Below are positions 16,508-34,428 of a DNA stretch of 64,000 nt, piece by piece. How positions within the stretch are numbered: the stretch's first letter is position 1; each line of letters starts with the position of its first letter. The stretch is from a virus. Made by a program: the position numbers and the translations under genes. The notes under the pieces were generated by a model. It searched no databases, was not told the DNA's origin, and was given only the letters and a program-made list of their open reading frames with translations. The DNA is taken from IMG/VR virus record IMGVR_UViG_3300023179_000089, positions 1 to 64,000 of that record. One strand, given 5' to 3'.

Positions 16508-16897
16508 ATGAAAATTTTCTTAGACGATGTAAGAATACCAAGCGATTGTATTGGATATATGTATACTAGAATTGGATCATTGAATCCGATTTATTTAGAA
16601 AATTGGACTATTGTAAGAAATTACAATGAATTCGTAGATGTTGTAACAAATAACATTACGGAAATCACGCATATTTCTTTCGACCACGATTTAGCAGATG
16701 AGCATTACGATCCTGCAATGTATCATGGCACGGAAAAGTATATGGAGTTAGCTGGAAAGTTTAAAGAAAAAACTGGGCTAGATTGCGCGATATGGTTAAA
16801 CGAATTTTATTTATCAGCTGGTAAATCTTTGCCGATCATGTTTGTTCATTCAATGAATCCTGTCGGAACTAAAAATATAATAGACGTTTTTAAATAA
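16508..16897 (+). CDS. cyclic-phosphate-processing receiver-like domain protein
   Basis: KIFLDDVR, ISFDHDL, TGLDCA, VHSMNPVG motifs. Confidence 0.75.
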   Translation: MKIFLDDVRIPSDCIGYMYTRIGSLNPIYLENWTIVRNYNEFVDVVTNNITEITHISFDHDLADEHYDPAMYHGTEKYMELAGKFKEKTGLDCAIWLNEFYLSAGKSLPIMFVHSMNPVGTKNIIDVFK

Positions 16898-18087: not shown

Positions 18088-18112
18088 AAAACAATCGCAA
18101 GCTTGCGCTCTT

Positions 18113-18229
18113 GTACGTACAGAACTGAATGATTTTGTTGAGTGTAGTGTACGGCGGTGTACGGGGAATGTACATCAATAGTATTGTCATTCAGGTCGTT
18201 CACGTACGTACAGAACTGAATGATTTTGT
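18113..18229 (+). repeat. 26-bp direct repeat pair with a 65-nt spacer
   Basis: GTACGTACAGAACTGAATGATTTTGT at 18113-18138 and 18204-18229. Confidence 0.9.
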
Positions 18230-18262: not shown

Positions 18263-18368
18263 CTTGAGTATTAATAGGTTACGTAACCAATTAATTTTCA
18301 ATGAAATAAATTCACCAAATTATTTGGTACATGTAGATGAATTACTTATTTTTATGTATAGTAATTAA
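18263..18368 (+). promoter_or_regulatory. early promoter cassette copy 3 (drives the tRNA-like array)
   Basis: full motif; followed by boxA-like AGTTCATTGAAA rather than an ATG. Confidence 0.8.
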
Positions 18369-18399
18369 TTAATTACTAAAAGTTCATTGAAAGAAATTT

Positions 18400-18472
18400 A
18401 GTCAGGTGGCAGATTGGGATGCAGGTTGCCCGAAACGGTCGCTCTATACAGGTTCGAATCCTGTCCTGACTA
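18400..18472 (+). ncRNA. tRNA-like RNA 1 (degenerate anticodon arm)
   Basis: AGTCAGG/CCTGACT acceptor stem plus A discriminator, ACAGG-TTCGAAT-CCTGT T-arm; weak anticodon stem without U33. Confidence 0.75.
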
Positions 18473-18489
18473 CTAAAATAAATAAAGTT

Positions 18490-18591
18490 ATGAAAAATGA
18501 AAAATGGTGGAATGGTTTCCTATTAGGACTTTTTATCGGGGGTATACTTGGTATAGTTATACTTGATTTAGTTCAAAGAGGAATACTATAA
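18490..18591 (+). CDS. 33-aa single-TM peptide between tRNA-like RNAs 1 and 2
   Basis: MKNEKWWNGFLLGLFIGGILGIVIL...; A-rich leader. Confidence 0.55.
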   Translation: MKNEKWWNGFLLGLFIGGILGIVILDLVQRGIL

Positions 18592-18595
18592 ATTT

Positions 18596-18701
18596 AGTCA
18601 GGTGGCGGAATGGTAGACGCTCATAGTCGGATTGAATGAATTGGGGGACGATCCTCCAACCACGGAGTGCCCAAATACAGGTTCGAATCCTGTCCTGACT
18701 A
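18596..18701 (+). ncRNA. tRNA-like RNA 2 (anticodon region replaced by multiple hairpins)
   Basis: same acceptor stem and T-arm; Leu-type D-arm GGCGGAATGGTAGACGC; internal TTGGGGGA/TCCTCCAA stem. Confidence 0.75.
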
Positions 18702-18704
18702 CAA

Positions 18705-18994
18705 TGAGTAAGAGATACTCAGCAGACTTGCCAATGTCTCATTTAAACTTGGTAGGGTATTGGACTGGACATCCTTAAACGCCAGTCTCAGTGGGAATAA
18801 AGGCAGGTAGCAGAGCCTCCCAGTAGCTTGACTAATTTTATGAGGGATGCCTCGCAGGTTTATTGAAAGCAAGAAAACCGAAATAACTACTCACCAGTAA
18901 TCTCAAGGTGGGGTCTGTAATGATAAAAAACAAAGGGCAGGGCGCAAAGACACTGAACAACGGGAGAGGCTGAGGAACTTCCATTATCATTACA
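18705..18994 (+). ncRNA. candidate structured RNA(s) between tRNA-like RNAs 2 and 3
   Basis: GC-richer, no long ORF; stems TGAGTA/TACTCA, GCAGACTT/GGGTCTGT, GACTGG/CCAGTC, TGAGG/CCTCG, CACC/GGTG, TGTAATGATAA/TTATCATTACA. Confidence 0.55.
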
Positions 18995-18997
18995 AAT

Positions 18998-19114
18998 AGT
19001 CAGGTGGCGGAATTTGGTTAGACGTACAGTACTTAACCTTGCAACACAGGTAACTCTGTTTAGTTGATTTGCTCACGGTACTGGGATATACAGGTTCGAA
19101 TCCTGTCCTGACTA
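18998..19114 (+). ncRNA. tRNA-like RNA 3 (tRNA-Leu(UAA)-like with a 40-nt anticodon-loop insert)
   Basis: same acceptor stem and T-arm; CAGTA-CT-TAA...TACTG anticodon stem enclosing the insert. Confidence 0.75.
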
Positions 19115-19151
19115 CAAATAACAAAATAATAGAAATAAAACTAAATTAAGC

Positions 19152-19355
19152 ATGACTAACAAAGTAGAAATAAAATCAATTATTCAAGACCTTAACCTTA
19201 TGAATGAAGGAGTAGGTGTTGACGGTGAAACAATGCAGTATATTTTACAGCAAGTGGGAATGGAATGGCAAATGCTTCGACAGTTAATGTTAACAATGCC
19301 ACCGCAGCAAGTACAGTATTTACTGCAAGAGCGTGAAGAGTTACAAATATTATAA
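19152..19355 (+). CDS. hypothetical protein
   Basis: VDGETMQYIL ORF after the array. Confidence 0.65.
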   Translation: MTNKVEIKSIIQDLNLMNEGVGVDGETMQYILQQVGMEWQMLRQLMLTMPPQQVQYLLQEREELQIL

Positions 19356-19647: not shown

Positions 19648-19822
19648 TGTACACGTACGTACTGCATTGATACTCAATCAGAAATAATTTTACTGTACGT
19701 GCGTACTGTATTCATTTAATTCTTATCTTTATACTGTTCGATAATTGGGACTATCCCGGAGCCAACAAAAAAGAGCCCGGTAGGAGTAAGGCGCCAACAG
19801 ATTTTTTTAAAAAAAATAATCT

Positions 19823-20855: not shown

Positions 20856-21587
20856 ATGAAAAACCACTTAAAACTTTATCAGATCCCTGACAGTTTAGAC
20901 GCTGCGCAAGCTTTTGCAAAAACAATCTCTGGAAAATACATTCATCCATCTTTACGCAATGCAAATTACATTCCTAGTATTCAACCTGTCGAAGAATTTC
21001 GCAAATTAGGATGGCAAATTACCGGTGTAAGAGATTGGAATACAAATGGAAAACCTTTAGAGAATTCAGTTCAAATGACGCATCCTGACTTCGCAGATTC
21101 AGAATCTAAATTAAATTTATTAATTAATAATTCTGCGAATGGAAATTGGCCAATGACAATGTCGCTAGGACTTTATCGAAAAGTATGCAGTAATGGATTA
21201 GTTGCATTTCGCGAAAATGCGACAGCTGTGATTCAACATAAAGCAGGTGTAGATCTTCAATCTTATATTGATGTACTTAATTCGCAAGCCGCGGAAATAC
21301 ATAAAGACTTTGCGCGAATGAAAGACGTCGTGTTGTCGACAGCTCAAATTGAAGAATTTGCGAAAGCAGCTATTGCAAAACGTTATCAACTTTCTTTAGA
21401 AGAAGAATCGAAAATAGATGTCACTCCATTTTTAACGATTAGAAGAGAAGAAGACGCGGGGCAGGATTTATGGAAAGTATTCAATAGACTGCAAGAAAAT
21501 CTTTCTTTAGATTTTACAGATGCAAAACAATATGTAGCATTTAATCGAGAAATTTCTTCTATGGCTTCGACTTTAGTAACTGCATAA
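20856..21587 (+). CDS. DUF932/DUF945-family protein
   Basis: GLYRKVCSNGL, RREEDAGQDLWKVFNRLQEN. Confidence 0.8.
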   Translation: MKNHLKLYQIPDSLDAAQAFAKTISGKYIHPSLRNANYIPSIQPVEEFRKLGWQITGVRDWNTNGKPLENSVQMTHPDFADSESKLNLLINNSANGNWPMTMSLGLYRKVCSNGLVAFRENATAVIQHKAGVDLQSYIDVLNSQAAEIHKDFARMKDVVLSTAQIEEFAKAAIAKRYQLSLEEESKIDVTPFLTIRREEDAGQDLWKVFNRLQENLSLDFTDAKQYVAFNREISSMASTLVTA

Positions 21588-34003: not shown

Positions 34004-34390
34004 GGGGGCGAATGGTATAGATTGACAGAATAGTTCTTTGAGATGATGCACGCAGTGCTAGTATTGGAAGCACTTAAATATCCTATATAACGAATAACTG
34101 GAAACGAAATCTCTGATTTCACTTACGAAGACGCTATGGCGTTCGTAAGCGGCGAATATGCTTTAGCAGCTTAATTGCCAACGGGTCGGCGCACATATAA
34201 CCTAGGAACAGAAGTGAATGGATTGGTGAAAAAACAATTGAACCTTAAATCGAATTGTCCATTGGTTGTTAGTTTACGATGGCTGAAGAACAAACTAAAT
34301 ATTTTGAGTCGTTAGAAAATGACATCTAAGCGTGTGAATGAGTCCTTAAATTGTCTGGGCAAGACGAGGGTTCGACTCCCTCCGCCTCCA
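34004..34390 (+). ncRNA. ssrA: tmRNA
   Basis: GGGGGCG/CGCCTCC-A acceptor stem with G3.U70, T-arm GAGGG-TTCGACT-CCCTC, tag ORF 34100-34174 GNEISDFTYEDAMAFVSGEYALAA*. Confidence 0.92.
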
Positions 34391-34428
34391 CTAATTCACG
34401 GAGTATTAACCTTTAAATTGAATCGAAT

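What the first reader, a model, noticed from the sequence alone, without database searches (positions are those of the whole stretch)
18705..18918. Candidate novel ~200-nt multibranch ncRNA inside the tRNA-like array
Seen: starts 3 nt after unit 2, is GC-richer than the genome and has no long ORF. A TGAGTA/TACTCA hairpin is followed by a long-range stem GCAGACTT(18722)/GGGTCTGT(18911) enclosing GACTGG/CCAGTC, AGTAG/CTACT, TGAGG/CCTCG, GGTTT/AAACC and CACC/GGTG helices. I do not recognise it as a known Rfam family. Large phage ncRNAs such as GOLLD and ROOL are known to sit among tRNAs.
Basis: partly seen in the sequence, partly recalled or inferred. Interest (0 to 1): 0.7.

Follow-up and report, generated by a model that had tools for sequence, protein, structure and literature searches.

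The report
New pseudoknotted phage tRNA-island RNA
This is a real, previously unclassified folded RNA of about 205 bases that many large aquatic phages carry, usually once per genome, wedged between their tRNA genes; what it does is unknown, but its conservation says it matters to the phage.

Summary
The flagged stretch is real and its limits are almost exact.

- **Family:** it belongs to a large phage-only RNA family. A covariance model gives 116 full-length matches, 90 of them distinct.
- **No known relative:** nothing matched in Rfam 15, in 50,697 GenBank phages, or in T4 rnaC/rnaD. Cellular genomes gave only one 39-nt match cut off at the end of a MAG contig.
- **Structure:** covariation is strong. 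84-87.5% of cells pair, against 36-53% in slid controls, and 0 of 500 shuffles reach the observed values.
- **Fold:** a 5' hairpin, three H-type pseudoknots, two internal hairpins and a 3' hairpin. The loops of the first and last hairpins are complementary.
six of eight hold. The outer closing stem is not conserved. AGTAG/CTACT cannot be decided because it never varies.
- **Processing:** members start 2 nt after an upstream tRNA's discriminator base and end 5-7 nt before the next tRNA. This points to release by tRNA-end processing.
- **Open:** function is unknown and expression was not tested.

My best guess is a trans-acting stable RNA of the phage tRNA island. It may close on itself or form multimers through the loop-loop contact.

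The parts
18704..18913 (+). Element A: the conserved ~205-nt RNA unit (210 nt here)
   Evidence: Covariance model R1 scores it 176.6 bits, E 7e-49, over model positions 1-207. It is the only copy in the 72.5-kb record. Contigs of other phages diverge from the window at 18913 and at 18722 (loose ends).
18702..18703 (+). 'CA' spacer between the discriminator base of unit 2 (18701) and the element
   Evidence: 40 of the 43 upstream tRNAs called by ARAGORN lie at the same fixed distance. Flanks read ...NCA|ATGAGT.
18705..18721 (+). H1: 5' hairpin (18705-18710 with 18716-18721) with a near-invariant loop
   Evidence: 99.4% of cells pair. Compensatory variants occur in L096/L262 (G-C to A-U), in L252/L259/L042-type (U-A to C-G), in L257, and in the second copy in L150.
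18712..18716 (+). 5' half of the loop-loop (kissing) contact, GAGAU
   Evidence: It is complementary to 18900-18904. Across 96 distinct members no combination loses the complementarity. The L042 type changes both loops (AGAC with GUCU). The second copy in L150 swaps both loops and keeps 4 of 5 pairs.
18724..18739 (+). H2: hairpin (18724-18727 with 18736-18739), stem 1 of pseudoknot 1
   Evidence: 94.7% paired on MAFFT alignment A1 and 92.1% on A3. All 6 pairs show double-sided changes on A3.
18730..18753 (+). H3: loop of H2 (18730-18733) paired with 18750-18753, completing pseudoknot 1
   Evidence: 92.9% paired on the alignment that was not fitted to the structure. All 4 pairs covary, with 14-20 double-sided cells each. 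RNAalifold found it independently.
18754..18788 (+). Pseudoknot 2: H4 (18754-18758 with 18771-18775) crossing H5 (18762-18768 with 18782-18788)
   Evidence: All 7 pairs of H5 covary. H4 shows G-C to C-G swaps in 26-29 cells. Some members carry a ~50-nt insertion in the H5 loop.
18792..18828 (+). Pseudoknot 3: H6 (18792-18796 with 18818-18822) encloses H7 (18802-18804 with 18815-18817), whose loop (18809-18811) pairs with 18826-18828 (H8)
   Evidence: H6 is 89.5% paired and all 5 pairs covary. H8 is 72-80% paired with 8-15 double-sided cells per pair. Longer versions of H8 are visible in L181, L139 and L053.
18823..18830 (+). Conserved junction GUA..UG (invariant A18825 and G18830)
   Evidence: Element positions 120-122 and 126-127 are at least 97% conserved in 90 distinct sequences. 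Pairing of GUA with UAC at 18888-18890 can be neither shown nor excluded.
18842..18853 (+). H10: hairpin with a conserved loop (GAUG here, GUAAGA in others)
   Evidence: 80% paired and all 4 pairs covary. Loop positions A18847 and G18849 are invariant.
18857..18879 (+). H11: hairpin GGUUU/AAACC
   Evidence: 92.5% paired and 4 of 5 pairs covary. Some members have extra hairpins inserted between H10 and H11.
18887..18890 (+). Conserved CUAC (invariant A18889)
18890..18912 (+). H12: 3' hairpin (18890-18895 with 18907-18912). Its loop carries AUCUC (18900-18904), the 3' half of the loop-loop contact
   Evidence: 99.0% paired and all 6 pairs covary. The U-G pair kept in 79 of 90 sequences fixes the + strand as the RNA strand.
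18353..18372 (+). Copy of the phage's repeated promoter-like motif, just upstream of the RNA array
   Evidence: The motif occurs 11 times in the window, all on the + strand, against 0.07 expected. Several other copies sit directly before ORF starts. That it is a promoter is inference.
18596..18701 (+). tRNA-like unit 2, whose 3' end defines the 5' end of element A
   Evidence: Rfam tRNA match, 40.1 bits.
18918..18996 (+). Element B: a separate small conserved module between element A and unit 3
   Evidence: nhmmer splits the spacer into two modules. The core of B recurs in 5 loci, free-standing or inside tRNA-like units. Fold z-score -2.64.

Best explanation
Element A (18704-18913, + strand) is a genuine, independently folding non-coding RNA of a new family carried by large aquatic phages.

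**Shown**
- The family exists and is sharply bounded.
- It is single-copy in 48 of 50 records searched whole.
- Its fold is a 5' hairpin, three consecutive H-type pseudoknots, two internal hairpins around a highly conserved junction, and a 3' hairpin.

**Well supported**
- The loops of the first and last hairpins pair with each other (GAGAU with AUCUC).

**Inferred from anatomy**
- The RNA is transcribed with the tRNA array from the phage's own promoter-like element.
- It is cut out by the host's tRNA-end processing. 3' processing of the upstream tRNA (RNase Z or equivalent) would make its 5' end. RNase P cleavage at the next tRNA would make its 3' end. The product would be a stable RNA with a 5' phosphate and a 3' hydroxyl, in the manner of T4's rnaC and rnaD.

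**Inferred, weakest step**
- It acts in trans. The loop-loop contact would close the chain of pseudoknots into a compact ring.
- The conserved core (GUA..UG, the H10 loop and CUAC) would form a binding surface for a protein or RNA partner.
- That partner would belong to the tRNA, translation or RNA-repair conflict that phage tRNA islands serve.

**My odds**
- Real structured RNA: 0.97.
- Release by tRNA-end processing: 0.8.
- Loop-loop contact: 0.75.
- The functional niche as stated: about 0.35.
For: **Family and limits**
- Model R1 gives 116 full-length matches, 90 of them distinct. Nine more came from a second pattern.
- 48 of 50 records hold one copy and 2 of 50 hold two. All 4 records that are at least 90% complete (182-465 kb) hold one.

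**Structure**
- On the alignment not fitted to the structure: 84.0% paired against 36-53% slid, 394 double-sided cells against 76-144, and 0 of 500 shuffles.
- On the model-fitted alignment: 87.5% paired, 49 of 57 pairs with double-sided change, 610 cells against 93-222.
- G-U pairs fix the strand.
- 33 positions are at least 97% conserved although identity to the window is only 48-88%.

**Not coding**
- The frame from the ATG is open for anywhere from 6 to 56 codons.

**Loop-loop contact**
- 96 distinct sequences give 13 loop combinations, and none loses complementarity.
- There is one clean compensatory switch, in 3 sequences of the L042 type.
- There is one wholesale swap, in the second copy in L150.

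**Punctuation by tRNAs (93 distinct contexts)**
- Upstream there are 43 ARAGORN tRNAs, 40 of them at the same distance, plus 32 T-arm-bearing tRNA-like ends.
- Downstream there are 51 tRNAs at 5-7 nt, plus 18 tRNA-like starts.
- T4's rnaD and rnaC abut tRNA-Arg in the same way.

**Context**
- A promoter-like repeat lies upstream.
- cREC_REC, which is tied to RNA repair in passages of PMC7824862, lies at 16508-16897 and in 8 of 90 family loci.
Against: - There is no expression data at all. No RNA run holds the region, and the laid runs are DNA contigs.
- The single-sequence folding energy is no better than shuffles.
- No partner was identified. The commonest neighbouring protein family is present in only 18 of 90 loci.
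- TROVE, RtcB and RNA ligase were not found in the 72.5-kb record, which is only 41% complete.
- The RNA is dispensable for phages that carry the tRNA-like scaffold units. Only 9 of 49 such records hold it, and 0 of the 6 that are at least 90% complete.
- The closest cultured relatives lack it.
- About 8 of 93 contexts have no upstream tRNA, so tRNA processing cannot be the only way to make the 5' end.
- The loop-loop contact rests on few independent events, and covariation cannot tell pairing within one molecule from pairing between molecules.
Confidence: 0.55

Rival explanations
1. RNA-only multimer. The two terminal loops pair between molecules, 'hand in hand', so that copies assemble head to tail into a ring, filament or cage. 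The assembly would be the functional form, as in ROOL and GOLLD nanocages or the phi29 pRNA ring.
For: - The two loops are complementary to each other, not to themselves, and they change together.
- In ROOL, a kissing loop that covariation had filed as a tertiary contact turned out to link different chains. ROOL and GOLLD also sit near phage tRNA islands (passages of 10.1101/2024.12.08.627333).
- In the only lineage with two copies (2 of 50 records), the second copy has a loop pair that cannot pair with the first copy's loops. That is what one would expect if mixed assemblies had to be avoided.
- Both loops are nearly invariant while ordinary helices covary freely.
Against: - Covariation cannot separate pairing within a molecule from pairing between molecules.
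- The two-copy argument rests on one lineage.
- At 205 nt the RNA is much smaller than ROOL or GOLLD.
- No structural or biochemical data exist.
Confidence: 0.2
2. Ribozyme. The pseudoknotted core with its invariant unpaired nucleotides would be a catalytic site, for example for self-cleavage at one of its own boundaries or for a reaction on tRNA ends.
For: - 33 positions are at least 97% conserved. The invariant ones lie in junctions and in a loop (A122, G127, A144, G146, A186).
- The fold has several pseudoknots.
- The boundaries are sharp, with a fixed 'CA' before the element.
- About 8 of 93 contexts lack an upstream tRNA yet keep the same 5' start.
Against: - No ribozyme family of Rfam matches, even at E<=10.
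- The boundaries are explained by the flanking tRNAs in most members.
- No cleavage-site signature could be identified.
- The laid runs were contigs, which cannot show ends.
Confidence: 0.1
3. Cis-acting element of the tRNA operon. It would be a structured spacer that helps folding, processing order, stability or termination of the polycistronic tRNA transcript, with no role once released.
For: It is always embedded in tRNA arrays on the tRNA strand. It is dispensable in many related phages.
Against: A spacer would not need 33 near-invariant positions, three pseudoknots and a long-range loop contact kept across sequences only 48-88% identical. The neighbouring tRNAs differ from phage to phage: Asp, Glu, Gln, Gly and others upstream, and Ser, Asp, Pro, Met and others downstream.
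Confidence: 0.07
4. Not an RNA at all. It would be a short protein-coding gene or a DNA-level site such as a recombination, packaging or replication signal.
For: The element begins with ATG. The window has short ORFs across it (48 aa on the + strand, 57 and 50 aa on the - strand).
Against: - The ATG frame stops after 6 to 56 codons in different members.
- Insertions and deletions are not in threes.
- Changes are compensatory in helices, and G-U pairs are kept on one strand only.
Confidence: 0.02

Closest known systems
ROOL and GOLLD RNAs (large ornate phage and prophage RNAs)
   Same: They are structured RNAs of phages with no known function, often next to tRNA islands. They are rich in pseudoknots and kissing loops, and covariation-supported loop contacts matter for their architecture (passages of 10.1101/2024.12.08.627333; passages of PMC5737381).
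   Different: Their Rfam models give no match here. Element A is about 205 nt against about 580 and over 800 nt. Its fold is a linear chain of three H-type pseudoknots. Multimer formation is untested.
Phage T4 rnaC and rnaD (species 1 and 2 stable RNAs)
   Same: They are small stable RNAs of unknown function inside the phage tRNA cluster, directly abutting a tRNA. rnaD starts 1 nt after tRNA-Arg and rnaC starts 6 nt after rnaD. This is the same 'tRNA punctuation' as here.
   Different: Model R1 gave no match over rnaC or rnaD in the T4 tRNA region, with filters off and E<=10. They are 139 and 119 nt long. T4 gave no blastn match either.
phi29-type packaging RNA (pRNA)
   Same: One RNA carries two loops that are complementary to each other and change together among relatives. 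In pRNA this contact is between molecules and builds a ring. That statement is recalled from the literature and comes from no call.
   Different: No Rfam match. Element A lies in tRNA arrays of 180-465 kb phages, not beside a packaging motor gene. No link to packaging was seen.
tmRNA (its pseudoknot ring)
   Same: It is a chain of H-type pseudoknots closed into a ring by an interaction between the two ends of the molecule. It is a stable RNA matured by tRNA-processing enzymes. This phage also encodes a bona fide tmRNA at 34004-34393.
   Different: Element A has no tRNA-like domain and no tag reading frame. ARAGORN and Rfam call tmRNA only at 34004. The ring here would be closed by a loop-loop contact, not by an acceptor stem.

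Membership tests
Any of the 4227 Rfam 15 families (including tRNA, tmRNA, RNase P, group I/II introns, riboswitches, self-cleaving ribozymes, GOLLD, ROOL, raiA, OLE, pRNA, Y RNA) | A score against the family's covariance model at the gathering threshold, or at least E<=10 | tested here: not met
   At the gathering threshold the whole window gives only tmRNA and two tRNAs. At E<=10 on 18300-19200 the only matches are the three tRNA-like units, with nothing in 18704-18996.
ROOL / GOLLD | Location in phages or prophages near tRNA islands | tested here: met
   Of 93 contexts, 75 have a tRNA or tRNA-like end directly upstream and 69 have one directly downstream. The literature basis is passages read.
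ROOL / GOLLD | Size of about 580 nt or more than 800 nt, with their specific multistem architecture | tested here: not met
   Members are 200-226 nt, or up to 284 nt with insertions. The architecture differs.
ROOL / GOLLD | Self-assembly into RNA-only multimers | not testable with these tools
   This needs biochemistry or cryo-EM. Only the complementary terminal loops are seen.
T4 rnaC / rnaD-type stable RNAs | Directly abuts a tRNA in the phage tRNA cluster, on the same strand | tested here: met
T4 rnaC / rnaD-type stable RNAs | Similarity of sequence and structure | tested here: not met
   R1 with filters off on the T4 tRNA region gives 17 chance-level rows (best E 0.094), none over rnaC or rnaD.
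tmRNA | tRNA-like domain plus a tag reading frame | tested here: not met
   ARAGORN and Rfam find tmRNA only at 34004-34393.
tmRNA | A chain of H-type pseudoknots | tested here: met
   Three pseudoknots are supported by covariation.
phi29 pRNA | Two mutually complementary loops that covary | tested here: inconclusive
   All 13 loop combinations in 96 distinct sequences stay complementary, but there are only two independent double-sided events, and one of them keeps 4 of 5 pairs.
phi29 pRNA | Association with the packaging motor or a genome end | tested here: inconclusive
   In the four records that are at least 90% complete, the element lies at 160.7 of 181.6 kb, 14.6 of 318 kb, 123.7 of 197 kb and 222.2 of 464.6 kb. 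Contig ends may be arbitrary. No packaging genes were examined.
Protein-coding gene | A conserved open reading frame | tested here: not met
   The ATG frame is open for 6-56 codons across 86 members.

The most novel reading that the evidence does not exclude
Element A would be the smallest member yet of a class of self-assembling phage RNAs. On this reading, about 205-nt monomers join hand in hand through their terminal loops into a closed ring or cage, and that assembly acts on tRNAs or ribosomes during infection. Alternatively, its invariant pseudoknotted core would be a new ribozyme acting on tRNA ends. Either way it would be a new functional RNA class, sitting beside a natural 'tRNA scaffold' system that displays variable RNA cargos.
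Probability: 0.25. Interest if true: 0.9.

Novelty: new variant of a known kind. Interest (0 to 1): 0.74.

Why it matters
Phage tRNA islands are now seen as hubs of the fight over the host's translation machinery. The structured RNAs that live in them (T4 rnaC and rnaD, GOLLD, ROOL) still have no known function.

This family adds a compact and tractable case:
- about 205 nt;
- three pseudoknots;
- 33 near-invariant positions;
- a testable loop-loop contact;
- at least 119 natural variants, in phages of 180-465 kb from lakes, reservoirs and estuaries.

Its size suits probing, crystallography or cryo-EM, and in-vitro processing assays with RNase P and RNase Z. The natural two-copy lineage with mismatched loops offers a ready test of pairing within one molecule against pairing between molecules.

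It also shows that phages use tRNA ends as processing handles for non-tRNA RNAs far beyond T4.

Tried and rejected
- **Single-sequence folding:** z = -0.62 and -0.24, so it gives no signal on its own.
- **GenBank phages:** blastn ('distant') of the array and of the element alone against 50,697 records gave no match, even at E<=1.
- **Rfam:** nothing at gathering scores or at E<=10.
- **Cellular genomes:** the 5' motif gave 11 exact matches in one scan of genome contigs. By my own estimate that is no more than chance. R1 confirms only a 39-nt match cut off at the end of a 4.4-kb MAG contig (L242), and two more rows are weak.
- **Closest cultured relatives:** judged by the baseplate wedge protein, these are Microcystis phage Mel-JY01, Flavobacterium phage immuto and uncultured phage LR756508. 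R1 gave E 0.36, E 0.48 and no match.
- **T4 rnaC and rnaD:** no match.
- **Expression:** no RNA holder was listed. The four laid runs are DNA-like contigs and say nothing on expression or ends.
- **Conserved protein partner:** clustering 866 ORFs from 90 loci found no family in more than 18 loci.
- **RNA-repair genes in this record:** TROVE, RtcB and RNA ligase gave no match, but the record is only 41% complete.
- **Obligate link to the tRNA-like scaffold units:** rejected, since 9 of 49 records hold the element and 0 of the 6 near-complete ones do.
- **Alternative long-range pairing of the 5' strand with the second TACTCA (18888-18893):** 96.1% paired, but 273 of 500 shuffles do as well, so this is conservation only. 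It is lost in L096, L046 and the L042 type.
rejected.
- **Coding reading:** rejected.
- **Sigma-70 promoter and terminator scan:** counts at or below the shuffle means, so not informative.
- **Literature:** six full-text searches found no description of this family. Passages of PMC10690425, a catalogue of 10,006 candidate viral structured RNAs built partly from IMG/VR, do not mention it. Its supplementary tables could not be read and may list it.
Full report
**What is there**

The window is the first 64 kb of a 72.5-kb IMG/VR viral record estimated at 41% complete. It has phage genes for thymidylate synthase, DNA ligase and baseplate wedge, and a tmRNA gene at 34004-34393. Its closest cultured relatives by the baseplate wedge protein are Microcystis phage Mel-JY01 (53% identity) and Flavobacterium phage immuto (44.6%).

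The flagged stretch lies in an RNA array on the + strand. In order, the array holds:
- a copy of the phage's repeated promoter-like motif at 18353-18372. The motif occurs 11 times in the window, all on the + strand, against 0.07 expected;
- tRNA-like unit 1 (18400-18473);
- a 33-codon ORF;
- unit 2 (18596-18701);
- the flagged stretch;
- unit 3 (18999-19114).

The stretch is GC-richer than its surroundings (0.43-0.475 against about 0.3) and has only short ORFs.

**Checking the observation**

On the single sequence, however, the predicted fold is no better than shuffles (z = -0.62; 56 of 200 shuffles fold as well).

Rfam 15 has nothing here. At gathering scores the window gives only tmRNA and two tRNAs. 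At E<=10 on 18300-19200 only the three tRNA-like units match. blastn against 50,697 GenBank phages finds nothing, even at E<=1.

**Relatives**

- nhmmer of 18704-18996 against those loci split the spacer into two independent modules. Module A is 18704-18913 and module B is about 18923-18990.
- The same pattern gave only 11 matches in one genome each of 185,579 prokaryote species. By my own estimate that is no more than chance.
- A covariance model, R1, was built from a plain MAFFT alignment of 69 members. It found 116 full-length matches, 90 of them distinct, and 9 more came from a second pattern.
- Among the cellular-genome loci, R1 confirms only a 39-nt match cut off at the end of a 4.4-kb MAG contig.
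- R1 finds nothing in the cultured relatives or over T4's rnaC and rnaD.
- Of 50 records searched whole, 48 hold one copy and 2 hold two. The four records that are at least 90% complete are 182-465 kb.
- The window's phage, or close kin, is present in lake, reservoir, estuary and freshwater DNA runs of 12 studies.
- In four laid runs, summed contig depth over element A is 60-200 against about 5-20 on the flanks. Foreign contigs break away from the window exactly at 18913 and at 18722, which matches the family's 3' end and the end of its invariant 5' segment.

**Structure**

On the MAFFT alignment, which was not fitted to any structure, my model of 54 pairs gives 84.0% paired cells. Slid controls give 36.4-53.2%. 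There are 394 double-sided changes against 76-144, and 0 of 500 shuffles reach the observed values. On the model-fitted alignment of 90 distinct sequences the figures are 87.5% paired, 49 of 57 pairs with double-sided change, and 610 cells against 93-222. That alignment leans towards the nested helices by construction.

The fold, in element positions (add 18703 for window coordinates):

| Helix | Positions | Role |
|---|---|---|
| H1 | 2-7 / 13-18 | 5' hairpin |
| H2 | 21-24 / 33-36 | stem 1 of pseudoknot 1 |
| H3 | 27-30 / 47-50 | completes pseudoknot 1 |
| H4 | 51-55 / 68-72 | pseudoknot 2, crosses H5 |
| H5 | 59-65 / 79-85 | pseudoknot 2 |
| H6 | 89-93 / 115-119 | encloses H7 |
| H7 | 99-101 / 112-114 | hairpin inside H6 |
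| H8 | 106-108 / 123-125 | H7 loop to the segment after H6; completes pseudoknot 3 |
| H10 | 139-142 / 147-150 | internal hairpin |
| H11 | 154-158 / 172-176 | internal hairpin |
| H12 | 187-192 / 204-209 | 3' hairpin |

- The three pseudoknot helices are supported on the unfitted alignment. H3 is 92.9% paired with 14-20 double-sided cells per pair, and RNAalifold found it independently.
- H1 is almost invariant but has compensatory variants in several lineages: UAAGUA/UACUUA in L096 and L262, C-G for U-A in L252, L259 and the L042 type, UGGG/CCCG in L257, and an unrelated stem in the second L150 copy.
- G-U pairs kept on one strand, such as U188-G208 in 79 of 90 sequences, show that the + strand is the RNA.
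- 33 positions are at least 97% conserved although identity to the window is only 48-88%. The five invariant ones (A122, G127, A144, G146, A186) are in a junction and the H10 loop.
- The frame from the initial ATG stays open for 6 to 56 codons, so the element is not coding.

**The loop-loop contact**

The H1 loop (GAGAU, positions 9-13) is complementary to the H12 loop (AUCUC, positions 197-201). Among 96 distinct sequences there are 13 loop combinations, and none loses the complementarity.
- 71 sequences are canonical.
- Several differ by G-U wobble.
- One sequence loses the terminal pair.
- The L042 type (3 distinct sequences, 4 contigs) changes both loops, to AGAC with GUCU.
- The second copy in L150 and L125 replaces both loops and keeps 4 of 5 pairs.

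This is good evidence but it rests on few independent events. It also cannot say whether the pairing is within one molecule or between molecules.

- Six of eight hold.
- The outer stem GCAGACTT/GGGTCTGT is specific to this window. Its 5' half is H2. Its 3' half lies beyond the family's end, where the other members listed have different sequence followed by a tRNA.
- AGTAG/CTACT pairs in 84.1% of cells, but every departure breaks the pair and there is no covariation, so it cannot be decided (240 of 500 shuffles).
- A tempting alternative, the 5' strand of H1 pairing with the second TACTCA, is conservation only (273 of 500 shuffles).

**How it is probably made**

In 93 distinct contexts:
- 43 have an ARAGORN tRNA directly upstream, 40 of them at the same distance. 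The flank reads discriminator base, 'CA', then the element.
- 32 more have a T-arm-bearing tRNA-like end upstream.
- 51 have a tRNA starting 5-7 nt after the final GGGG, and 18 have a tRNA-like start there.
- The neighbouring tRNAs are of many identities.

From established knowledge of tRNA maturation (recalled, not from a call), RNase Z or an equivalent cuts after the discriminator base and RNase P cuts at tRNA position +1. The element would therefore be released with a 5' phosphate and a 3' hydroxyl. T4's rnaD and rnaC abut tRNA-Arg in the same way. About 8 contexts lack an upstream tRNA, so another route to the 5' end must also exist. In the window the downstream neighbour is module B, not a tRNA.

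**What it may do**

No partner emerged.
- The commonest neighbouring protein families are PF04308 RNaseH_like (18 of 90 loci), an HNH endonuclease (12), DUF932 (11) and cREC_REC (8).
- The window itself has cREC_REC at 16508-16897 and DUF932 at 20856-21587.
- cREC is predicted to process cyclic phosphate ends and is linked to RNA ligases in large phages (passages of PMC7824862).
- TROVE, RtcB and RNA ligase were not found in this incomplete record.
- The element is not tied to the tRNA-like scaffold units. Only 9 of 49 scaffold-bearing records hold it, and none of the 6 near-complete ones.

My best reading is a trans-acting stable RNA of the tRNA island, closed or multimerised through its terminal loops. 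Its conserved core would bind a partner in the conflict over tRNA, translation and RNA repair. The rivals are an RNA-only multimer, a ribozyme, a cis-acting spacer, and a non-RNA reading.

The multimer reading gains some weight from three points:
- the ROOL precedent, where a covariation-supported 'tertiary' kissing loop proved to link chains;
- the near invariance of both loops;
- the mismatched loop pair of the only two-copy lineage.

**Comparison and novelty**

The element shares its setting with ROOL and GOLLD and its punctuation with T4 rnaC and rnaD. It shares the logic of paired loops with pRNA (recalled) and the ring of pseudoknots with tmRNA. It fails the model or homology test for each of them.

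I file it as a new RNA class within the known category of structured RNAs in phage tRNA islands. Six literature searches found no description of it. The IMG/VR-based catalogue of PMC10690425 may list it in supplements that I could not read.

**Limits**

- There is no expression data.
- The function is inferred.
- Members were found through exact motifs, so divergent members are under-sampled.

Noticed in passing
window 18400-18473, 18596-18701, 18999-19114; loci L003-L122: The three 'tRNA-like units' belong to a very large phage family with a constant tRNA-Leu-like frame: acceptor stem AGUCAGG/CCUGACU, a GGCGGAAUUGGUAGACGC-type D-arm, a T-arm and discriminator A. The middle, where the anticodon arm should be, is hypervariable. 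There are 210 distinct units of 63-191 nt, and ARAGORN calls only 44 of them tRNAs, with scattered anticodons. More than 120 viral contigs carry the frame, with up to 6 copies per locus. It looks like a natural tRNA scaffold displaying variable RNA cargos. Leucyl-tRNA synthetase does not read the anticodon (recalled), so charging is conceivable.
   Followed up: partly
Its core recurs in 5 loci. In L079, L159 and L090 it sits inside a tRNA-like scaffold unit in place of the anticodon arm. In L009 and the window it stands free. Rfam has no match.
   Followed up: partly
L150 2441-2640 and L125 (records G073, G052): This is the only lineage with two copies of element A. The second copy lies about 500 nt downstream and is divergent (52.7 bits). 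Its H1 stem and both terminal loops are replaced, so its loops cannot pair with those of the first copy.
   Followed up: partly
L153 4139-4181: This looks like a deletion derivative of element A. The 5' hairpin is joined directly to the 3' hairpin, as if the DNA between the two TACTCA repeats had been lost (19.4 bits only).
   Followed up: no
L126, L129, L134, L170; L124, L141, L146, L161, L187: Some members carry lineage-specific expansions. One is a ~50-nt insertion in the loop of H5. The other is one or more extra hairpins between H10 and H11. They give members of 254-284 nt.
   Followed up: no
window 18490-18591: A 33-codon ORF between units 1 and 2 encodes a hydrophobic, membrane-like peptide, MKNEKWWNGFLLGLFIGGILGIVILDLVQRGIL. 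Contigs of related phages differ at many places across it (table 3).
   Followed up: no
window 15897-46493 (11 sites), e.g. 18353-18372: The motif TATGTATAGTAATTAATTAA occurs 11 times, all on the + strand (0.07 expected), and several copies lie directly before ORF starts. A palindrome, AATAGGTTACGTAAC, lies about 80 nt upstream of at least three of them. This is probably a phage-specific promoter with an operator.
   Followed up: partly
window 34004-34393: The phage encodes a tmRNA (75.7 bits) with an unusually long predicted tag, GNEISDFTYEDAMAFVSGEYALAA.
   Followed up: no
window 16508-16897 and 20856-21587: A cREC_REC domain protein (predicted to process cyclic phosphate ends) and a DUF932 protein flank the RNA array. 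The same two families recur near element A in 8 and 11 of 90 other loci.
   Followed up: partly
window 18106-18138, 18197-18229, 19649-19670: A GTACGTACAGAACTGAATGATTTTGT-type element is repeated at the ends of short transcription units. It may be a phage-specific terminator or processing site.
   Followed up: no
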